Positions 1,687-4,476 are shown, counted from the stretch's first letter. The stretch is DNA of 4,660 nucleotides from a virus (IMGVR_UViG_2695420699_000005), one strand, 5' to 3'. Numbers and translations: made by a program. The notes: generated from the sequence alone by a model not told the origin.

Positions 1687-1809
1687 GTGTCCGTAATATA
1701 CAGCAGCGCAATAAATTCGCTGGTGGTTATTAATACCGTTCTTTCAGGTTGCTGGCTTTTTCGACAAGAGTTATTGGTGTGTCACGTTAACCGGAAAAGG
1801 GAAAAAGAC

Positions 1810-2007
1810 ATGCTGAAACAGCAGGATATGACAGAAACCGCCAGAGTGGTGTTTAATGAATTAAGCGTTACCGACCCGGCGACAGTCGGGGAGATTGCGC
1901 AGAATACTTACCTTTCACGCGAACGCTGCCAGTTAATACTGACCCAGCTGGTTATGGCGGGTCTGGCAGACTATCAGTTTGGTTGTTACAGACGCCTTCA
2001 GTCCTGA
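1810..2007 (+). CDS. Small winged-helix / HTH DNA-binding protein (65 aa), hypothetical
   Basis: Internal ATG at 1810 of track ORF 1687..2007, with an AGGG Shine-Dalgarno 8 nt upstream. The stretch TVGEIAQNTYLSRERCQLILTQLVMAGLADY looks like a helix-turn-helix/wing segment. The part of the ORF upstream of 1810 is less protein-like and overlaps the leader hairpins. Confidence 0.5.
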   Translation: MLKQQDMTETARVVFNELSVTDPATVGEIAQNTYLSRERCQLILTQLVMAGLADYQFGCYRRLQS

Positions 2008-2020
2008 AGGCTTTTTTATT
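1994..2020 (+). terminator. Rho-independent terminator overlapping the stop codon of the small wHTH gene
   Basis: 7-bp stem GCCTTCA/TGAAGGC (1994-2000 / 2005-2011) with loop GTCC, followed by TTTTTTATTT (2012-2020). Confidence 0.55.
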
Positions 2021-2034
2021 TGTGGTAAATGGGC

Positions 2035-2065
2035 GGCTGGTGGGTGTAAGGGGCACCCACCAGCC
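2035..2065 (+). repeat. Perfect 12-bp inverted repeat GGCTGGTGGGTG-N7-CACCCACCAGCC; each arm contains a Chi octamer
   Basis: Read directly: 2035-2046 is the exact reverse complement of 2054-2065, with a 7-nt spacer TAAGGGG. GCTGGTGG lies at 2036-2043 and its complement CCACCAGC at 2057-2064. No U-tract follows, so it is not a typical terminator. Confidence 0.85.
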
Positions 2066-2157
2066 ATCTGCTCATGCGTTGGGTTCACAAGCAAACCTCA
2101 GGCCCACTGCTTTGCGCAAAAGCAGAATGAGCCTATCAGAGACAGGCTTAATGATCC

Positions 2158-3207
2158 ATGCTTAATACTGTAAAAATATCCAGTTGTGAGTTAATCAACG
2201 CCGACTGCCTGGAATTTATGCGGTCGTTACCCGAAAATTCTGTTGACCTGATAGTCACGGACCCGCCGTACTTCAAAGTGAAACCCGAGGGCTGGGATAA
2301 CCAGTGGGCGGGTGATGAAGATTACCTGAAGTGGCTGGACCAGTGTCTTGCGCAGTTCTGGCGGGTGCTGAAACCTGCCGGAAGTCTTTACCTGTTCTGT
2401 GGCCATCGTCTGGCATCTGACACCGAAATCATGATGCGTGAGCGGTTTAACGTGCTGAACCATATCATCTGGGCAAAGCCGTCCGGACGCTGGAACGGGT
2501 GCAACAAGGAAAGCCTGCGGGCGTATTTCCCCGCCACAGAGCGCATTCTGTTCGCAGAGCATTATCAGGGGCCGTATCGTCCGAAAGATGCCGGGTATGA
2601 GGCGAAGGGTAGGGCACTGAAACAGCATGTGATGGCCCCGCTGATTGCTTACTTTCGTGATGCGCGCGCTGTCCTGGGGATAACGGCAAAACAGATTGCA
2701 GATGCCACAGGAAAGAAAAACATGGTGTCGCACTGGTTCAGTGCCGGTCAGTGGCAGCTGCCGAACGAAAGCGATTATCTGAAATTACAGGCACTGTTTG
2801 CCCGGGTGGCAGAAGAGAAGCATCAGCGGGGTGAACTGGAAAAGCCCCACCACCAGCTGGTGGATACGTATGCCTCTCTGAACCGACAGTATGCGGAGCT
2901 GCAGAGTGAATATAAGCATCTGCGGCGGTATTTTGGTGTGACGGCGCAGGTGCCGTACACGGATGTGTGGACACATAAACCGGTGCAGTTCTATCCCGGG
3001 AAACATCCGTGCGAAAAACCGGCAGAAATGCTGCAGCAGATAATCAGCGCAAGCAGTCGTCCGGGTGACCTGGTTGCAGATTTTTTTATGGGCTCAGGTT
3101 CAACGGTAAAAGCGGCACTGGCGCTCGGGCGTCGTGCAATTGGCGTTGAGCTGGAGACTGAACGTTTTGAGCAGACAGTCAGGGAAGTTCAGGATTTAAT
3201 CGTTTGA
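2158..3207 (+). CDS. DNA methyltransferase, beta-class (motif IV DPPY N-terminal, motif I FxGSGS C-terminal), probably N6-adenine; orphan, with no adjacent restriction endonuclease
   Basis: 349 aa ORF with VDLIVTDPPYF near the N-terminus (2245-2274) and DFFMGSGSTVKAALALGRRAIGVE near the C-terminus. That motif order (IV then I) is the beta permutation of amino-MTases, and DPPY favours N6-adenine over N4-cytosine (often SPPY). The antisense ORFs inside it are low-complexity and treated as artefacts. Confidence 0.85.
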   Translation: MLNTVKISSCELINADCLEFMRSLPENSVDLIVTDPPYFKVKPEGWDNQWAGDEDYLKWLDQCLAQFWRVLKPAGSLYLFCGHRLASDTEIMMRERFNVLNHIIWAKPSGRWNGCNKESLRAYFPATERILFAEHYQGPYRPKDAGYEAKGRALKQHVMAPLIAYFRDARAVLGITAKQIADATGKKNMVSHWFSAGQWQLPNESDYLKLQALFARVAEEKHQRGELEKPHHQLVDTYASLNRQYAELQSEYKHLRRYFGVTAQVPYTDVWTHKPVQFYPGKHPCEKPAEMLQQIISASSRPGDLVADFFMGSGSTVKAALALGRRAIGVELETERFEQTVREVQDLIV

Positions 3208-3218
3208 AACGGATGAGA

Positions 3219-3247
3219 TTGCAGAATTAATTTCGCACCATTATTAT
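3219..3247 (+). promoter_or_regulatory. Candidate sigma70 promoter for the tRNA cluster
   Basis: TTGCAG (3219-3224), 17-nt spacer, TATTAT (3242-3247), which would start transcription a few nt before the tRNA 5' end at 3257. The -35 is weak; pattern match only. Confidence 0.3.
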
Positions 3248-3256
3248 TCTGGTCCC

Positions 3257-3332
3257 GGCCCTTTAGCTCAGTGGTGAGAGCGAGCGACTCATAATCGCCA
3301 GGTCGCTGGTTCAAATCCAGCAAGGGCCACCA
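3257..3332 (+). tRNA. ileZ: tRNA-Ile2-like (anticodon CAU, ileX/ileZ type; formally could read as tRNA-Met)
   Basis: 76 nt with acceptor stem GGCCCTT/AAGGGCC, D-arm AGCTCAGTGGTGAGAGC, anticodon loop CTCATAA, T-loop TTCAAAT, discriminator A and encoded CCA. Near-identical by recollection to E. coli ileX (tRNA-Ile LAU). A phage tRNA-Ile of this type next to a tRNA-Arg is the arrangement known from Stx-type lambdoid phages. Confidence 0.9.
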
Positions 3333-3339
3333 TCACATA

Positions 3340-3419
3340 CCGCCATTAGCTTATCAGGAAGAGCAGACGACACCATAACAGGGTTGTTGGTGCGGGGGCG
3401 GGTCCCCGATGGCGGTCCA
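3340..3419 (+). tRNA. tRNA-like element, non-canonical (possible pseudo-tRNA or argN-position remnant)
   Basis: Perfect 7-bp acceptor-type pairing CCGCCAT (3340-3346) with ATGGCGG (3409-3415), then T and CCA (3416-3419). Plausible D-arm GCTT-ATCAGGAA-GAGC and a 5-bp GC stem CGGGG/CCCCG directly abutting the 3' acceptor strand. However the T-loop is a non-consensus 6 nt (GCGGGT) and no canonical anticodon stem-loop could be drawn. Confidence 0.35.
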
Positions 3420-3432
3420 TTATCGGTATTCT

Positions 3433-3509
3433 GCGTTGTTAGCTCAGCCGGACAGAGCAATTGCCTTCTAAGCAATCGGTCACTGGTTCGACTCCACTAC
3501 AACGCGCCA
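3433..3509 (+). tRNA. argO: tRNA-Arg (anticodon UCU, reads AGA)
   Basis: 77 nt with acceptor GCGTTGT/ACAACGC, D-arm AGCTCAGCCGGACAGAGC, anticodon stem-loop ATTGC-CTTCTAA-GCAAT (anticodon TCT), T-loop TTCGACT, discriminator G and encoded CCA. One C-C mismatch in the T-stem. Resembles E. coli argU. Confidence 0.85.
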
Positions 3510-3522
3510 CACTTATTTTCCA

Positions 3523-3546
3523 GGCTCGCTTCGGCGGGCCTTTTTT
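3523..3546 (+). terminator. Rho-independent terminator downstream of the tRNA cluster
   Basis: 7-bp stem GGCTCGC/GCGGGCC (one G-U pair) with a UUCG tetraloop (3530-3533), followed by TTTTTT (3541-3546). Confidence 0.6.
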
Positions 3547-3678
3547 GTATCTGCGCCACGCCCGGTGCATATCAACCACAGAGCCTTTCGGGGGTGAGCT
3601 TACGGAGTGGTCAGTGTGACTTTCTCTGTGGGCAGATCGCTCCCGGGCGTTGGCTCACCCACCCAAAGGAACGTCACG

Positions 3679-4111
3679 ATGTTTGGTATTTTTGGTAAAA
3701 AAAGCCCGCAGAGCGGCAACGGAAATTAAAAAGTTTGAAAAACGCGATCTGGCACAGGTGGTGATTAACGCCGCATACCTGGTGGCCTGTGCAGATGGTG
3801 AATGTGAGGCTTCCTAGAAAGCGAAGATCGAACAGGTACTGCGTAATCAGCCTGCGCTGTCCGCGTTTACGTCAGAAATTAATGCGATTAGCGCAACCAT
3901 TATCGGTCAGCTGGATACGAACTTTAAAATTGGTCGTCGTGCGGCGTTACGTGAGATCGAGGATGTGAAACACGATACGCGTGAAGCGGAAGATGTGCTG
4001 GATGTGGCGGTGGCCATTGCGGAGGCAGACGGCGAAATTGAGCCGGAAGAGCGCAAGGTGCTGGAAGAGATTGCCGGTGTTCTGGGTCTTCGTCTGGAGA
4101 ATCACCTGTGA
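3679..4111 (+). pseudogene. TerB-like (tellurite-resistance TerB family) gene disrupted by a frameshift in an A7 run and an in-frame amber codon
   Basis: ATG at 3679 with an AGGA Shine-Dalgarno 8 nt upstream reads MFGIFGKK then stops after 16 codons. Shifting +1 at the A7 run (3697-3703) continues as ARRAATEIKKFEKRDLAQVVINAAYLVACADGECEAS, hits TAG at 3815-3817, then continues KAKIEQVLRNQPALSAF...VAIAEADGEIEPEERKVLEEIAGVLGLRLENHL to TGA at 4109-4111. The composition is strongly protein-like and the ADGE...EE...L pattern resembles TerB-type domains, which I recall being annotated at this position in enterobacterial prophages. Confidence 0.5.
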
Positions 4112-4275
4112 CGGTAAAACTGCGCCTGACTGTGGCTGCACTCCTGCTGTTTCTGGTGGTGATGGTGGATTTCACCAGCAGAATCATGTCGGTGCTGGCG
4201 GATGGGGTGCTGGTCTGCGGCATTGTGGTATTGCTGTGGCCGGTGATAAAAAGAAACAGCCTGCATAATGCTTGA
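4108..4275 (+). CDS. Small hydrophobic membrane protein (about 55 aa, two predicted TM helices), translationally coupled to the TerB-like frame
   Basis: GTG start at 4108 overlaps the TerB-frame stop (GTGA). Translation VTVKLRLTVAALLLFLVVMVDFTSRIMSVLADGVLVCGIVVLLWPVIKRNSLHNA has two hydrophobic segments and ends at TGA 4273-4275. Track ORF 3981..4268 is in another frame and is W/R-rich and non-protein-like. Not in the ORF track under this frame; start codon uncertain (internal ATG alternatives exist). Confidence 0.4.
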   Translation: MTVKLRLTVAALLLFLVVMVDFTSRIMSVLADGVLVCGIVVLLWPVIKRNSLHNA

Positions 4276-4476
4276 TTTTTTTGTTTGCTGTTTATTAAAA
4301 ACACTTCTGCATGGTGAATCCCCCTGTGCGGAGGGGCAATCAGCGAGTAGGTATATGGGATAATCGCGGATTCAGGTGCTGGTACTGAATTCACCGGGAG
4401 GCACCCGGCACCATGCTTTGCCACAAAAGTGTTATTTCTGTTTTTCTCAAACTATCATCGTTATCCCTTTATTTCC

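What the first reader, a model, noticed from the sequence alone, without database searches (positions are those of the whole stretch)
2021..2157. Highly structured methyltransferase leader carrying a head-to-head Chi pair
Between the terminator at 1994-2020 and the MTase ATG lie a perfect 12-bp inverted repeat (2035-2065), a 7-bp hairpin CTGCTTT/AAAGCAG (2107-2125) and a 5-bp hairpin AGCCT/AGGCT (2128-2146). A 12-bp perfect repeat is unlikely by chance and could be an operator, an RNA processing site or an attenuator. Its arms are Chi (GCTGGTGG) and complement, so it would also present an active Chi to RecBCD from either side.
Basis: seen in the sequence. Interest (0 to 1): 0.5.

Follow-up and report, generated by a model that had tools for sequence, protein, structure and literature searches.

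The report
Conserved RNA leader of phage methyltransferase
The 12-bp inverted repeat is the main stem of a conserved, previously uncatalogued folded RNA leader in front of a toxic, non-specific phage DNA adenine methyltransferase gene, and the two Chi sites in its arms are a side effect of the stem sequence rather than a selected feature.

Summary
A perfect 12-bp inverted repeat lies at 2035-2046/2054-2065, with Chi on the + strand (2036-2043) and its complement (2057-2064). A 7-bp hairpin and a 5-bp hairpin follow; the latter is really at 2130-2148. The Chi reading does not hold: of 60 distinct homologous leaders, 44 have only the + strand Chi, 5 have both and 11 have none. The hairpin itself is always kept. 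It shows compensatory changes in 10 of 13 pairs and G·U far more often than A·C (103 v 9), so it is a + strand RNA stem. It belongs to a ~130-nt multi-helix leader directly upstream of M.EcoGII-family methyltransferase genes. These occur in lambdoid, N15-like (phiKO2, PY54) and Vibrio (VP58.5) phages, always just after a late-operon terminator. The leader is as conserved as non-synonymous codon positions (0.82 v 0.50 at third positions). Its invariant 5' strand AUGGGC has two conserved alternative partners. The gene has almost no Shine-Dalgarno sequence. No Rfam family matches. Most likely it is a cis-acting RNA that gates expression of a toxic enzyme on the Q-dependent late transcript. The exact mechanism (processing or translational switch) is inferred only.

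The parts
1810..2007 (+). Small ORF (65 aa, weak winged-helix/TrmB-like) upstream of the leader. It is usually present but not always linked to it.
   Evidence: ORF list. Pfam gives only sub-threshold wHTH hits. A homolog lies upstream of the MTase in at most 59 of 80 genome loci; the remaining loci either lack it while keeping leader and MTase or are too truncated upstream to tell.
1994..2017 (+). Intrinsic terminator ending the small-ORF transcript (stem 1994-2011, then T-run). The leader always starts just after such a terminator.
   Evidence: The upstream hairpins differ in sequence but are always present in homologs. phiKO2 authors annotated late promoter, then terminator, immediately before the motif.
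2021..2034 (+). Conserved 5' flank UGUGGUAAAUGGGC. AUGGGC (2029-2034) is strand S1, which can pair with two alternative partners.
   Evidence: AATGGGCG is invariant in 45 representatives. S1:S2 is 95.5% paired and S1:S4 99.2% paired, both with compensatory changes.
2035..2046 (+). 5' arm of the main stem (the inverted repeat). Contains + strand Chi at 2036-2043.
   Evidence: On the broad alignment, 13 pairs are 92% paired and 10 show changes on both sides.
2047..2053 (+). Loop of the main hairpin. Length (3-7 nt) and sequence vary among homologs.
2054..2065 (+). 3' arm of the main stem. Carries the - strand Chi (2057-2064) in this allele only; most relatives have a 1-nt bulge and/or G·U wobbles here.
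2066..2075 (+). 4-nt 3' bulge AUCU (2066-2069) and strand S2, GCUCAU (2070-2075). S2 pairs with S1 and extends the hairpin to about 19 bp.
   Evidence: MFE fold. The same architecture appears in nearly all 45 representatives folded singly. The Vibrio phage has GUGGGC/GCUCAC, i.e. A-U changed to G-C.
2081..2092 (+). Conserved segment GGGUUCACAAGC (S3). It can pair weakly with S2, or with UGAUC next to the start codon.
   Evidence: Support is weak or inconclusive.
2102..2106 (+). GCCCA (S4), the alternative partner of S1.
   Evidence: 100% paired in 55 sequences and 99.2% in 52, with compensatory changes in L141, L354 and L310.
2105..2129 (+). Second conserved hairpin. Its core is 2107-2113/2119-2125, with CA/UG at its base.
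   Evidence: It is 90-92% paired, and 3 of 6 upper pairs show compensatory changes on the broad alignment.
2130..2148 (+). Third hairpin AGCCU/AGGCU. It is present in this lineage and in distant clades but degenerate in most E. coli-type relatives. Its 3' arm holds the only AGG near the start codon.
   Evidence: It is 67% paired.
2152..2160 (+). UGAUCC + AUG: the start region of the methyltransferase. There is no usable Shine-Dalgarno sequence, and a conserved GATC sits just 5' of the ATG.
   Evidence: Anti-SD duplex energy is -3.3 kcal/mol here and averages -2.5 in 59 homologs, against -5.3 to -7.1 for other genes of the window.
2158..3207 (+). Beta-class N6-adenine DNA methyltransferase of the M.EcoGI/M.EcoGII family (349 aa, DPPY...FxGxG).
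   Evidence: Pfam N6_N4_Mtase, E = 3.6e-44. It is 95% identical to the phage 1720a-02 MTase, which Murray et al. (PMC5778455) describe as very similar to M.EcoGII.

Best explanation
The inverted repeat is the central stem of a conserved, roughly 130-nt structured RNA leader (window 2021-2157, + strand). The leader precedes the gene for an M.EcoGII-family non-specific adenine DNA methyltransferase. It lies directly after an intrinsic terminator in the phage late operon, so it is made only when Q-modified RNA polymerase reads through (inferred from gene order, and from the phiKO2 annotation of late promoter, terminator, motif, MTase). Shown here: the stem is under selection as RNA of the + strand, and the whole leader is under purifying selection. 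The invariant 5' strand AUGGGC has two conserved, mutually exclusive partners (GCUCAU at 2070-2075 and GCCCA at 2102-2106). The methyltransferase start lacks a Shine-Dalgarno sequence. Inferred: the leader acts in cis and post-transcriptionally to keep this toxic enzyme off except in lytic growth. One candidate mechanism is that the ~19-bp interrupted hairpin is a double-strand-RNA processing or stability site, as in the lambda late leader. The other is that the alternative pairings gate ribosome access to the weak start site. The Chi octamer in the 5' arm, and its complement in the 3' arm of this allele, are by-products of a G/U-rich arm pairing with a C/A-rich arm. Transitions in the G/U-rich arm break pairs, so it stays frozen. 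Transitions in the C/A-rich arm give G·U wobbles, so it drifts.
For: Structure: on 60 distinct Enterobacterales leaders the 13-pair stem is 97% paired, with 8 pairs changed on both sides. None of 500 shuffles reached the observed value on any of five measures, and slid controls were 33-44% paired. On a broader set of 52 distinct leaders, 10 of 13 pairs are compensatory, the covariation score is 0.285 v 0.130, and again 0/500 shuffles reach it. All 22 Xenorhabdus/Photorhabdus representatives fold into a nested hairpin at the same place with different sequences. Strand: G·U 103 v A·C 9 in the stem and 64 v 7 in the outer helix. The + strand fold is more stable than the - strand fold in 40 of 45 representatives (-28.0 v -22.6 kcal/mol). 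Selection: mean pairwise identity is 0.82 for the leader, 0.50 at MTase third codon positions, 0.85 at positions 1+2, and 0.47 further upstream. Linkage: the motif lies directly upstream of the MTase in nearly all 80 genome loci, the clear exceptions being L152 and L163. The same holds in 42 of 59 distant IMG/VR loci, Vibrio phage VP58.5, Yersinia PY54 and Klebsiella phiKO2. Alternative partners: S1:S2 is 95.5% paired and S1:S4 99.2%, both with compensatory changes, and the two conformers differ by about 3 kcal/mol. Weak SD. Rationale: M.EcoGII is silent in the lysogen and harmful when constitutively expressed (PMC5778455). Precedent: RNase III processing sites exist in the Q-dependent lambda late leader (Daniels et al. 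1988, reference 49 of PMC7547250). Chi is dispensable.
Against: There is no transcript, end-mapping or expression evidence, so the function is inferred from sequence alone. The alignments used for pair counts were fitted to the model structure, and many sequences are related, so cell counts overstate independent events. The candidate third helix (S2:S3) is only 68% paired and is not stable on its own in E. coli-type leaders. The start-occluding helix GGUCA/UGAUC shows no covariation beyond shuffles. The hairpin is shorter (11-12 bp) in three Xenorhabdus leaders, which fits an RNase III substrate poorly. The exact 20-nt box AATGGGCGGCTGGTGGGTGT is invariant across genera whose MTase third positions are about 50% identical. 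The wobble-asymmetry argument explains this qualitatively, but I have not shown it is sufficient.
Confidence: 0.7

Rival explanations
1. The Chi sites are the selected feature. The repeat would be a DNA element that presents an active Chi to RecBCD from either side, protecting phage DNA or stimulating recombination at a module junction. The RNA fold would be secondary.
For: Exact Chi lies on both strands in this allele. The + strand Chi is kept in 49 of 60 distinct Enterobacterales leaders. Related prophage loci are Chi-rich at 0.66-0.82 per kb, against about 0.22 per kb for the E. coli chromosome (my own knowledge). Mosaic breakpoints cluster at the repeat: homology ends at 2047 in the L004/L011 type and near 2081 in the L005/L012 type, and begins near 2021-2027 in cdtI-type phages. 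The deletion variant joins the 5' arm to a DUF3927 gene whose intact alleles also carry Chi next to the junction. A second + strand Chi after tR' (1719) is also conserved.
Against: The - strand Chi is present in only 5 of 60 homologs. Both Chi are lost, with the hairpin retained through compensatory changes, in most Providencia/Proteus leaders and in Rosenbergiella. Only 3 of 22 Xenorhabdus/Photorhabdus representatives carry Chi, and none is seen in phiKO2, PY54 or VP58.5. Chi positions are no better conserved than the non-Chi positions of the same arm or the flanking AAUGGGCG. The seven Chi in the window show no orientation bias (3 +, 4 -). The deletion junction lies in a 6-bp GGGTGT microhomology, not in the Chi octamer.
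Confidence: 0.1
2. The repeat is a DNA operator bound by a dimeric regulator, for example the small winged-helix protein encoded just upstream. This would resemble C-protein control of restriction-modification genes.
For: The palindrome is perfect in this allele. A small wHTH-like ORF lies immediately upstream in most loci, and the gene controlled is a methyltransferase.
Against: The half-sites are not conserved symmetrically. Substitutions are wobble-type and strand-asymmetric (G·U 103 v A·C 9). A 1-nt bulge in one arm and variable spacer length are tolerated. The stem sequence is completely different in clades that keep a related small ORF. Some loci keep hairpin and MTase without a detectable small-ORF homolog upstream.
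Confidence: 0.05
3. The hairpin is a transcription attenuator or second intrinsic terminator. It would back up the terminator at 1994-2017 and stop non-antiterminated polymerase before the MTase.
For: It lies in an untranslated leader just after a terminator. In several Xenorhabdus leaders the hairpin is followed by UUUU (for example GCCGGC-UUUUCGUG), and in phiKO2-type leaders by UUUC or UUUU.
Against: In the window and all E. coli-type leaders the stem is followed by AUCU/AUUC GCUCAU with no U-tract, and the terminator scan does not call it. The segment after the stem is itself paired with the conserved 5' strand, which is not terminator-like.
Confidence: 0.1
4. The box encodes a regulatory leader peptide (ATG GGC GGC TGG TGG GTG TAA = MGGWWV) whose tandem Trp codons sense tryptophan or ribosome stalling.
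For: An ATG at 2029 opens a 6-codon ORF with two adjacent Trp codons that overlaps the 5' arm, and the box is invariant in Enterobacteriaceae.
Against: There is no Shine-Dalgarno sequence before this ATG. ORF length varies from 6 to about 36 codons among close relatives. The peptide is not conserved where the stem covaries (Providencia MGDCKG..., Proteus MGDSED...), and the frame differs in Xenorhabdus.
Confidence: 0.02

Closest known systems
RNase III processing sites in the Q-dependent late leader RNA of phage lambda (Daniels, Subbarao, Blattner & Lozeron 1988, Virology 167:568; seen only as reference 49 of PMC7547250)
   Same: Both are structured elements in the untranslated leader of a lambdoid late transcript, downstream of the Q-controlled terminator. 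Here the interrupted hairpin (6 bp + 4-nt bulge + 12-13 bp) has about the size of an RNase III substrate.
   Different: No sequence relationship was tested and cleavage here is untested. The hairpin is only 11-12 bp in a few Xenorhabdus relatives. This element is tied to one cargo gene (the MTase) rather than to the late operon as such.
Phage Mu com-mom translational control
   Same: Both involve a potentially lethal DNA-modification gene expressed late. In both, a small gene lies immediately upstream and a leader hairpin lies near a poor translation start, so expression is gated after transcription.
   Different: The upstream protein here is winged-helix-like, not a Com zinc finger, and appears absent in several lineages that keep the leader. 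The conserved main hairpin lies about 90 nt from the start codon rather than over it.
Attenuator/riboswitch-type leaders with mutually exclusive helices
   Same: One invariant strand (AUGGGC) has two conserved alternative partners, each kept by compensatory changes. The leader has several helices and strongly conserved unpaired stretches, and it sits in a 5' UTR.
   Different: E. coli-type leaders have no terminator U-tract, there is no conserved leader peptide, and no ligand or effector is known. No Rfam family matches.
Chi (crossover hotspot instigator) sites
   Same: The exact octamer 5'-GCTGGTGG-3' is present on both strands of this allele.
   Different: The octamer is not conserved as such. 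It sits in an RNA stem that covaries, and the second copy is just the complement in the one variant with a perfect stem.
C-protein/C-box control of restriction-modification methyltransferases
   Same: Both show a small HTH gene, then a palindrome, then a methyltransferase gene.
   Different: Conservation of the palindrome is at the RNA level (wobbles, bulge). There is no cognate nuclease, and transcription comes from the phage late promoter.

Membership tests
Chi site (RecBCD hotspot) | Exact octamer 5'-GCTGGTGG-3' | tested here: met
   Present at 2036-2043 (+) and 2057-2064 (-).
Chi site (RecBCD hotspot) | If functional as a pair, both octamers should be retained in relatives that keep the locus | tested here: not met
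   Of 60 distinct leaders, 5 have both, 44 have + only and 11 have none. Only 3 of 22 Xenorhabdus/Photorhabdus representatives carry Chi, and phiKO2, PY54 and VP58.5 leaders have different stem sequences.
Chi site (RecBCD hotspot) | Stimulates RecBCD-dependent recombination or attenuates degradation in vivo or in vitro | not testable with these tools
   This needs lambda red gam crosses or RecBCD assays on linear substrates.
Intrinsic (Rho-independent) terminator | G+C-rich stem-loop | tested here: met
   The stem is a perfect 12 bp with 9 G-C pairs.
Intrinsic (Rho-independent) terminator | Run of U immediately 3' of the stem | tested here: not met
   The stem is followed by AUCUGCUCAU and is not called by the terminator scan. 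A U-run occurs only in some Xenorhabdus and phiKO2-type relatives.
Any Rfam 15 RNA family | Covariance-model match at or near the gathering score | tested here: not met
   In the window the only overlap is a - strand P26 hit of 24.3 bits against a gathering score of 36 (E = 0.068). Eleven diverse homologous loci gave no hit at E <= 0.1.
Palindromic DNA operator | Both half-sites conserved symmetrically at the DNA level with fixed spacing | tested here: not met
   The 5' arm is invariant and the 3' arm variable. A 1-nt bulge and 3-7 nt loops are tolerated, and G·U outnumbers A·C 103 to 9.
Structured cis-regulatory 5'-leader RNA (riboswitch/attenuator-like) | Secondary structure conserved through compensatory changes, on the sense strand of the downstream gene | tested here: met
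   (0/500 shuffles) and the strand tests.
Structured cis-regulatory 5'-leader RNA (riboswitch/attenuator-like) | Constant linkage to one gene family across phylogeny | tested here: met
   The motif lies directly upstream of MTase homologs from E. coli to Vibrio phage. Partial copies next to other genes look like recombination products.
Structured cis-regulatory 5'-leader RNA (riboswitch/attenuator-like) | Mutually exclusive conformations coupled to an expression platform | tested here: inconclusive
   Two conserved partners exist for AUGGGC, differing by about 3 kcal/mol. The link to the start site (GGUCA/UGAUC) has no covariation support, and P3 is weak.
Structured cis-regulatory 5'-leader RNA (riboswitch/attenuator-like) | A defined effector (ligand, protein, temperature) changes the fold | not testable with these tools
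   This needs in-line/SHAPE probing and reporter assays.
RNase III substrate | About two helical turns (~20 bp) of mostly double-stranded RNA, often with an internal loop | tested here: inconclusive
   The extended hairpin is 6 + 12-13 bp with a 4-nt bulge in nearly all 45 E. coli-type representatives, but only 11-12 bp in L191, L193 and L196. Cleavage is untested.
M.EcoGI/M.EcoGII family of non-specific adenine methyltransferases (for the downstream gene) | 349-aa beta-class enzyme (DPPY ... FxGxG) encoded on an E. coli prophage, with close sequence identity | tested here: inconclusive
   Length, motifs and Pfam N6_N4_Mtase all fit. The protein is 95% identical to the phage 1720a-02 MTase, which the M.EcoGII paper calls 'very similar'. 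The M.EcoGII sequence itself was not available for direct comparison, and non-specific activity is untested.

The most novel reading that the evidence does not exclude
The leader would be a new class of RNA switch, with one invariant strand choosing between two conserved partners. It would sense a cellular or phage signal (for example SAM/SAH, a phage protein, or the state of the antiterminated transcription complex). It would license translation or stabilisation of a genome-wide, non-specific adenine methyltransferase only during lytic growth. It would be shared by lambdoid, N15-like and Vibrio temperate phages.
Probability: 0.25. Interest if true: 0.7.

Novelty: new member of a known kind. 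Interest (0 to 1): 0.5.

Why it matters
M.EcoGII is widely used as a non-specific adenine methyltransferase reagent. It is known to be silent in lysogens and harmful when expressed constitutively (PMC5778455), but how phages control it has not been described in what I could search. A conserved multi-helix leader RNA tied to this gene family across Enterobacterales and Vibrio phages gives a concrete, testable control element. It is also a candidate new entry for RNA family catalogues. Finally, it is a caution for sequence readers: exact Chi octamers, even a head-to-head pair, can arise simply because a G/U-rich RNA stem arm happens to spell GCUGGUGG.

Tried and rejected
- **Sigma-70 promoter at TGTGGTAAAT (2021-2030), with the hairpin as a 5'-terminal stabiliser.** Rejected. 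The would-be -11 A is G in many relatives, the spacing to the box varies, and the scan finds no + strand promoter.
- **Leader peptide MGGWWV.** Rejected: no SD, not conserved.
- **Coding region.** The two + strand ORFs over the leader (1979-2173, 1983-2165) have no Pfam match, and loop or bulge indels shift their frames. The annotated 'hypothetical protein' over the leader in phage Flotzy is a translation of the hairpin.
- **Known sRNAs of this prophage region** (AgvB, AsxR, StxS, Pas sRNAs, STnc100). None maps to the leader. Rfam finds only STnc100, at 4280-4452.
- **Tyrosine-recombinase-type core site (12-7-12) or integron attC-like folded site.** Rejected. The arms are not conserved at the DNA level, no recombinase is nearby, and the element is co-oriented with and tied to an mRNA start region.
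- **REP/BIME-type repeat.** One copy per phage contig.
- **- strand RNA or terminator.** The - strand fold is less stable in 40 of 45 representatives, and the wobbles are on the + strand.
- **RNAalifold on raw MAFFT alignments.** This gave poor or no consensus because bulges and variable stems were misaligned. It was replaced by covariance-model alignment and single-sequence folds.
- **A scan of viral contigs with an MTase alignment.** It returned only close E. coli relatives. Distant relatives came from using the Vibrio phage MTase as the query.
- **Three-way-junction helix S2:S3 and start-occluding helix GGUCA/UGAUC.** These are kept only as hypotheses.

Full report
**Context.** The window is the late-regulatory region of a lambdoid prophage that matches E. 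coli O157:H7 chromosomes at 100%. The genes, in order, are:
- a DUF968/HNH gene (64-657);
- rusA (670-1029);
- a Q-type antiterminator (about 1038-1568; Pfam DUF1133/Phage_antitermQ);
- the PR'/tR' region, with a terminator-like hairpin at 1666-1679 and a T-run;
- a 65-aa winged-helix-like ORF (1810-2007), followed by an intrinsic terminator (1994-2011 plus T-run);
- the 137-nt leader in question;
- a 349-aa beta-class N6-adenine methyltransferase (2158-3207);
- two tRNA genes;
- a disrupted TerB gene;
- a DUF3927 ORF;
- an STnc100 sRNA.

These assignments rest.

**Checking the observation.** All the stated features exist. The 12-nt arms at 2035-2046 and 2054-2065 are perfectly complementary with a 7-nt spacer, and CTGCTTT/AAAGCAG lies at 2107-2113/2119-2125. 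Chi is on the + strand at 2036-2043 and on the - strand at 2057-2064. A perfect inverted repeat of 12 nt or more with a short spacer arose in 0.4% of 2000 Markov simulations. The leader folds at -63.7 kcal/mol, z = -3.8 against shuffles.

**Relatives.** The region occurs in 2082 of 5426 complete E. coli genomes and in many Stx and other lambdoid phages. In a first alignment of 12 diverse relatives, the 20-nt box AATGGGCGGCTGGTGGGTGT (5' flank plus 5' arm) was invariant. The 3' arm varied (CACCTGCCAGCC, CACTCACCAGCC, CACCCGACCAGCC and others), so the - strand Chi is usually absent.

An unbiased sample was then taken through the methyltransferase protein: 80 loci from one genome per species, with 61-96% amino-acid identity. 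Enterobacteriaceae keep the box. Providencia and Proteus have compensated stems, GACUGUAAAGGUG/CACCCUUACAGUC and GACAGUGAGGAUG/CAUCCCCGCUGUC. Xenorhabdus and Photorhabdus have a nested hairpin of different sequence at the same position.

**Formal tests.** A covariance model built on 45 representatives gave an alignment of 60 distinct leaders.
- The 13-pair stem is 97% paired, and 8 pairs changed on both sides.
- None of 500 column shuffles reached the observed value on any of five measures.
- Sliding the 3' partners by 1-3 columns drops pairing to 33-44%.

The substitutions are strand-specific. G·U outnumbers A·C by 103 to 9 in the stem and by 64 to 7 in the flanking helix. The + strand fold is more stable than the - strand fold in 40 of 45 representatives. 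This points to a single-stranded + strand molecule. Given co-orientation with the gene, that molecule is the mRNA leader.

The same asymmetry explains why the 5' arm is frozen while the 3' arm drifts. Transitions in a G/U-rich arm break pairs, whereas transitions in a C/A-rich arm make wobbles.

**Chi.** Among the 60 distinct leaders, 44 have only the + strand Chi, 5 have both and 11 have none. Only 3 of 22 Xenorhabdus/Photorhabdus representatives have Chi. Chi positions are no better conserved than their neighbours in the arm or the flanking AAUGGGCG.

The window's seven Chi look striking against shuffles (0.15 expected). However, related prophage loci carry 0.66-0.82 Chi per kb, the sites show no orientation bias, and two of the seven are complements within palindromes. 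The head-to-head pair is therefore a property of this allele's perfect stem, not a conserved device.

**The leader as a whole.** Mean pairwise identity of the 130 nt before the ATG is 0.82 in 44 genomes. The corresponding values are 0.50 at methyltransferase third codon positions, 0.85 at positions 1+2, and 0.47 further upstream. The whole leader is therefore under purifying selection, including stretches predicted to be unpaired (UCACAAGC.AACC, GGCCCAC, GUGAGCCUAUCAGAG).

The invariant AUGGGC (2029-2034) pairs with GCUCAU (2070-2075), which extends the hairpin to about 19 bp with a 4-nt bulge. Alternatively it pairs with GCCCA (2102-2106).

**Wider distribution.** The model also hits directly upstream of methyltransferase homologs in:
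- Vibrio phage VP58.5;
- 42 of 59 distant IMG/VR loci;
- Yersinia phage PY54;
- Klebsiella phiKO2-type linear-plasmid prophages.

In these clades the stem sequence is quite different (for example CUGCAGCAUG/CAUGCUACAG and CUGCCCC/GGGGCAG), while the flanks are recognisably the same.

On 52 distinct leaders spanning these clades:

| Helix | Paired | Pairs with compensatory changes |
|---|---|---|
| Main stem | 92% | 10 of 13 |
| AUGGGC:GCUCAU (S1:S2) | 95.5% | 3 |
| AUGGGC:GCCCA (S1:S4) | 99.2% | 2 |
| Second hairpin | 90% | 3 |
| Third hairpin | 67% | - |

The compensatory changes in AUGGGC:GCCCA are G-C to A-U in two lineages and C-G to G-C in one. Both partners of AUGGGC are thus maintained and are mutually exclusive, and constrained folds differ by about 3 kcal/mol. 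A further helix between GCUCAUG and CACAAGC is only 68% paired and weak on its own. A helix between GGUCA and the UGAUC next to the start codon is 92% paired but shows no covariation. No Rfam 15 family matches the window leader or 11 diverse homologs.

**Position and gene.** In every context the motif begins just after a terminator-like hairpin of variable sequence. In phiKO2 the authors annotated late promoter, then terminator, and the motif follows at once, with the methyltransferase as the first late gene. The leader should therefore be transcribed only by antiterminated polymerase; this is an inference.

The methyltransferase is 95% identical to that of phage 1720a-02. Murray et al. describe that enzyme as very similar to M.EcoGII, a 349-aa non-specific adenine methyltransferase that is silent in the lysogen and deleterious when expressed constitutively (PMC5778455). 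Its start site has almost no Shine-Dalgarno complementarity: -3.3 kcal/mol here and a mean of -2.5 in 59 homologs, against -5.3 to -7.1 for other genes in the window.

**Interpretation.** The repeat is the main stem of a conserved cis-acting leader RNA that gates expression of a toxic enzyme on the late transcript. Two mechanisms fit the anatomy.
- **Processing or stability site.** The long interrupted hairpin could be cut or protected, like the RNase III sites in the lambda late leader (Daniels et al. 1988, cited in PMC7547250).
- **Conformational switch.** The choice between the two partners of AUGGGC could control access to the weak start site.

Neither is demonstrated, and I give about 0.7 to the general statement and much less to either branch.

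**Rivals.**
- Selection for Chi (0.1) is weakened by loss of Chi with retention of the hairpin.
- A DNA operator (0.05) is weakened by wobble asymmetry, the tolerated bulge, and loci that lack the small ORF.
- A terminator or attenuator (0.1) fails the U-tract test in E. coli-type leaders, though some distant relatives have one.
- A Trp-rich leader peptide (0.02) is not conserved.

**Mosaic junctions.** Homology breaks cluster at the hairpin. One variant, seen in 10 of 132 box contexts, joins the 5' arm at GGGTGT to the 3' part of a DUF3927 gene and deletes the methyltransferase, tRNAs and TerB. Intact DUF3927 alleles read GTGCTGGTGGCGGGTGT|GGTGG at that point. Another variant keeps a wobble-rich hairpin in front of an unrelated HTH gene. 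I read these as recombination at a conserved sequence, not as its purpose.

**Verdict.** The element is best filed as a new member of a known kind, a conserved structured 5'-leader RNA. It has a specific and testable link to control of M.EcoGII-family methyltransferases.

Noticed in passing
window 4280-4452 (+): There is a strong match to Rfam STnc100 (RF02076; 101.5 bits, E = 4e-22), a prophage sRNA. It lies just after the DUF3927 ORF and before the expected lysis genes.
   Followed up: partly
window 3257-3332 and 3433-3509 (+): Two tRNA genes follow the methyltransferase. One has a CAT anticodon (annotated ileZ/tRNA-Ile in relatives) and the other is tRNA-Arg(TCT). Relatives often carry a third, argN, between them.
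   Followed up: partly
window 3679-4111 (+): The TerB-like gene looks disrupted. Its start frame ends after 16 codons next to an A8 run, and the continuing frame contains an in-frame TAG at 3815-3817. Only the C-terminal 96 aa match Pfam TerB.
   Followed up: partly
window 4108-4275 (+); L004, L011 and eight viral loci: This is a full-length DUF3927 ORF (E = 3e-17). In 10 of 132 contexts the hairpin's 5' arm is fused at a GGGTGT microhomology to the 3' end of a DUF3927 gene, deleting about 2.2 kb (MTase, tRNAs, TerB). Intact DUF3927 alleles also carry a + strand Chi beside the junction. RefSeq annotates the 24-aa remnant as a 'DUF3927 family protein'.
   Followed up: yes
window 2850-2863: A 14-bp perfect palindrome CCACCAGCTGGTGG (two overlapping Chi, head to head) lies inside the methyltransferase coding region (PHHQLVD). 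It is only partly conserved in homologs.
   Followed up: partly
window 1719-1726 (+): A + strand Chi lies about 32 nt after the tR' terminator in a TAAAY-N2-5-GCTGGTGG context resembling the leader box. It is kept in most sequence variants of that region, two of which suggest a small covarying stem around it.
   Followed up: partly
L137:1518-1629 (Trabulsiella odontotermitis): A second, degenerate copy of the motif's 5' half (terminator, CTGTGAAGATGGGCAGCG...) lies about 840 nt upstream of the real one, in front of an unrelated 130-160-aa ORF. Only the upper stem still pairs (GAGUG/CACUC).
   Followed up: partly
L357 (phiKO2) 1473-1706; L317 (Yersinia phage PY54): In N15-like linear-plasmid prophages the motif sits immediately after the annotated late promoter and its terminator. 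The methyltransferase is the first late gene and is itself followed by another terminator.
   Followed up: partly
L214 (E. coli O157:H7 strain 3-5-1) 2809-3866: RefSeq marks the methyltransferase downstream of an identical leader as a frameshifted pseudogene in this strain. The toxic gene may often be inactivated in resident prophages.
   Followed up: no
window 2153-2156: A GATC (Dam site) directly abuts the methyltransferase start codon and is nearly invariant in Enterobacterales leaders. It is part of the UGAUC that can pair with the upstream GGUCA.
   Followed up: partly
L007 (phage Flotzy) 1447-1599: The annotated hypothetical protein CDS0003 overlaps the leader and reads ...MGGWWMLEHPPAISS..., i.e. 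a translation of the hairpin. It is probably a spurious gene call.
   Followed up: partly
L076 (IMG/VR contig) 287-438 and 3272-3423 (-): Two full copies of the leader lie about 3 kb apart on one viral contig, suggesting tandem methyltransferase cassettes or an assembly of two prophages.
   Followed up: no
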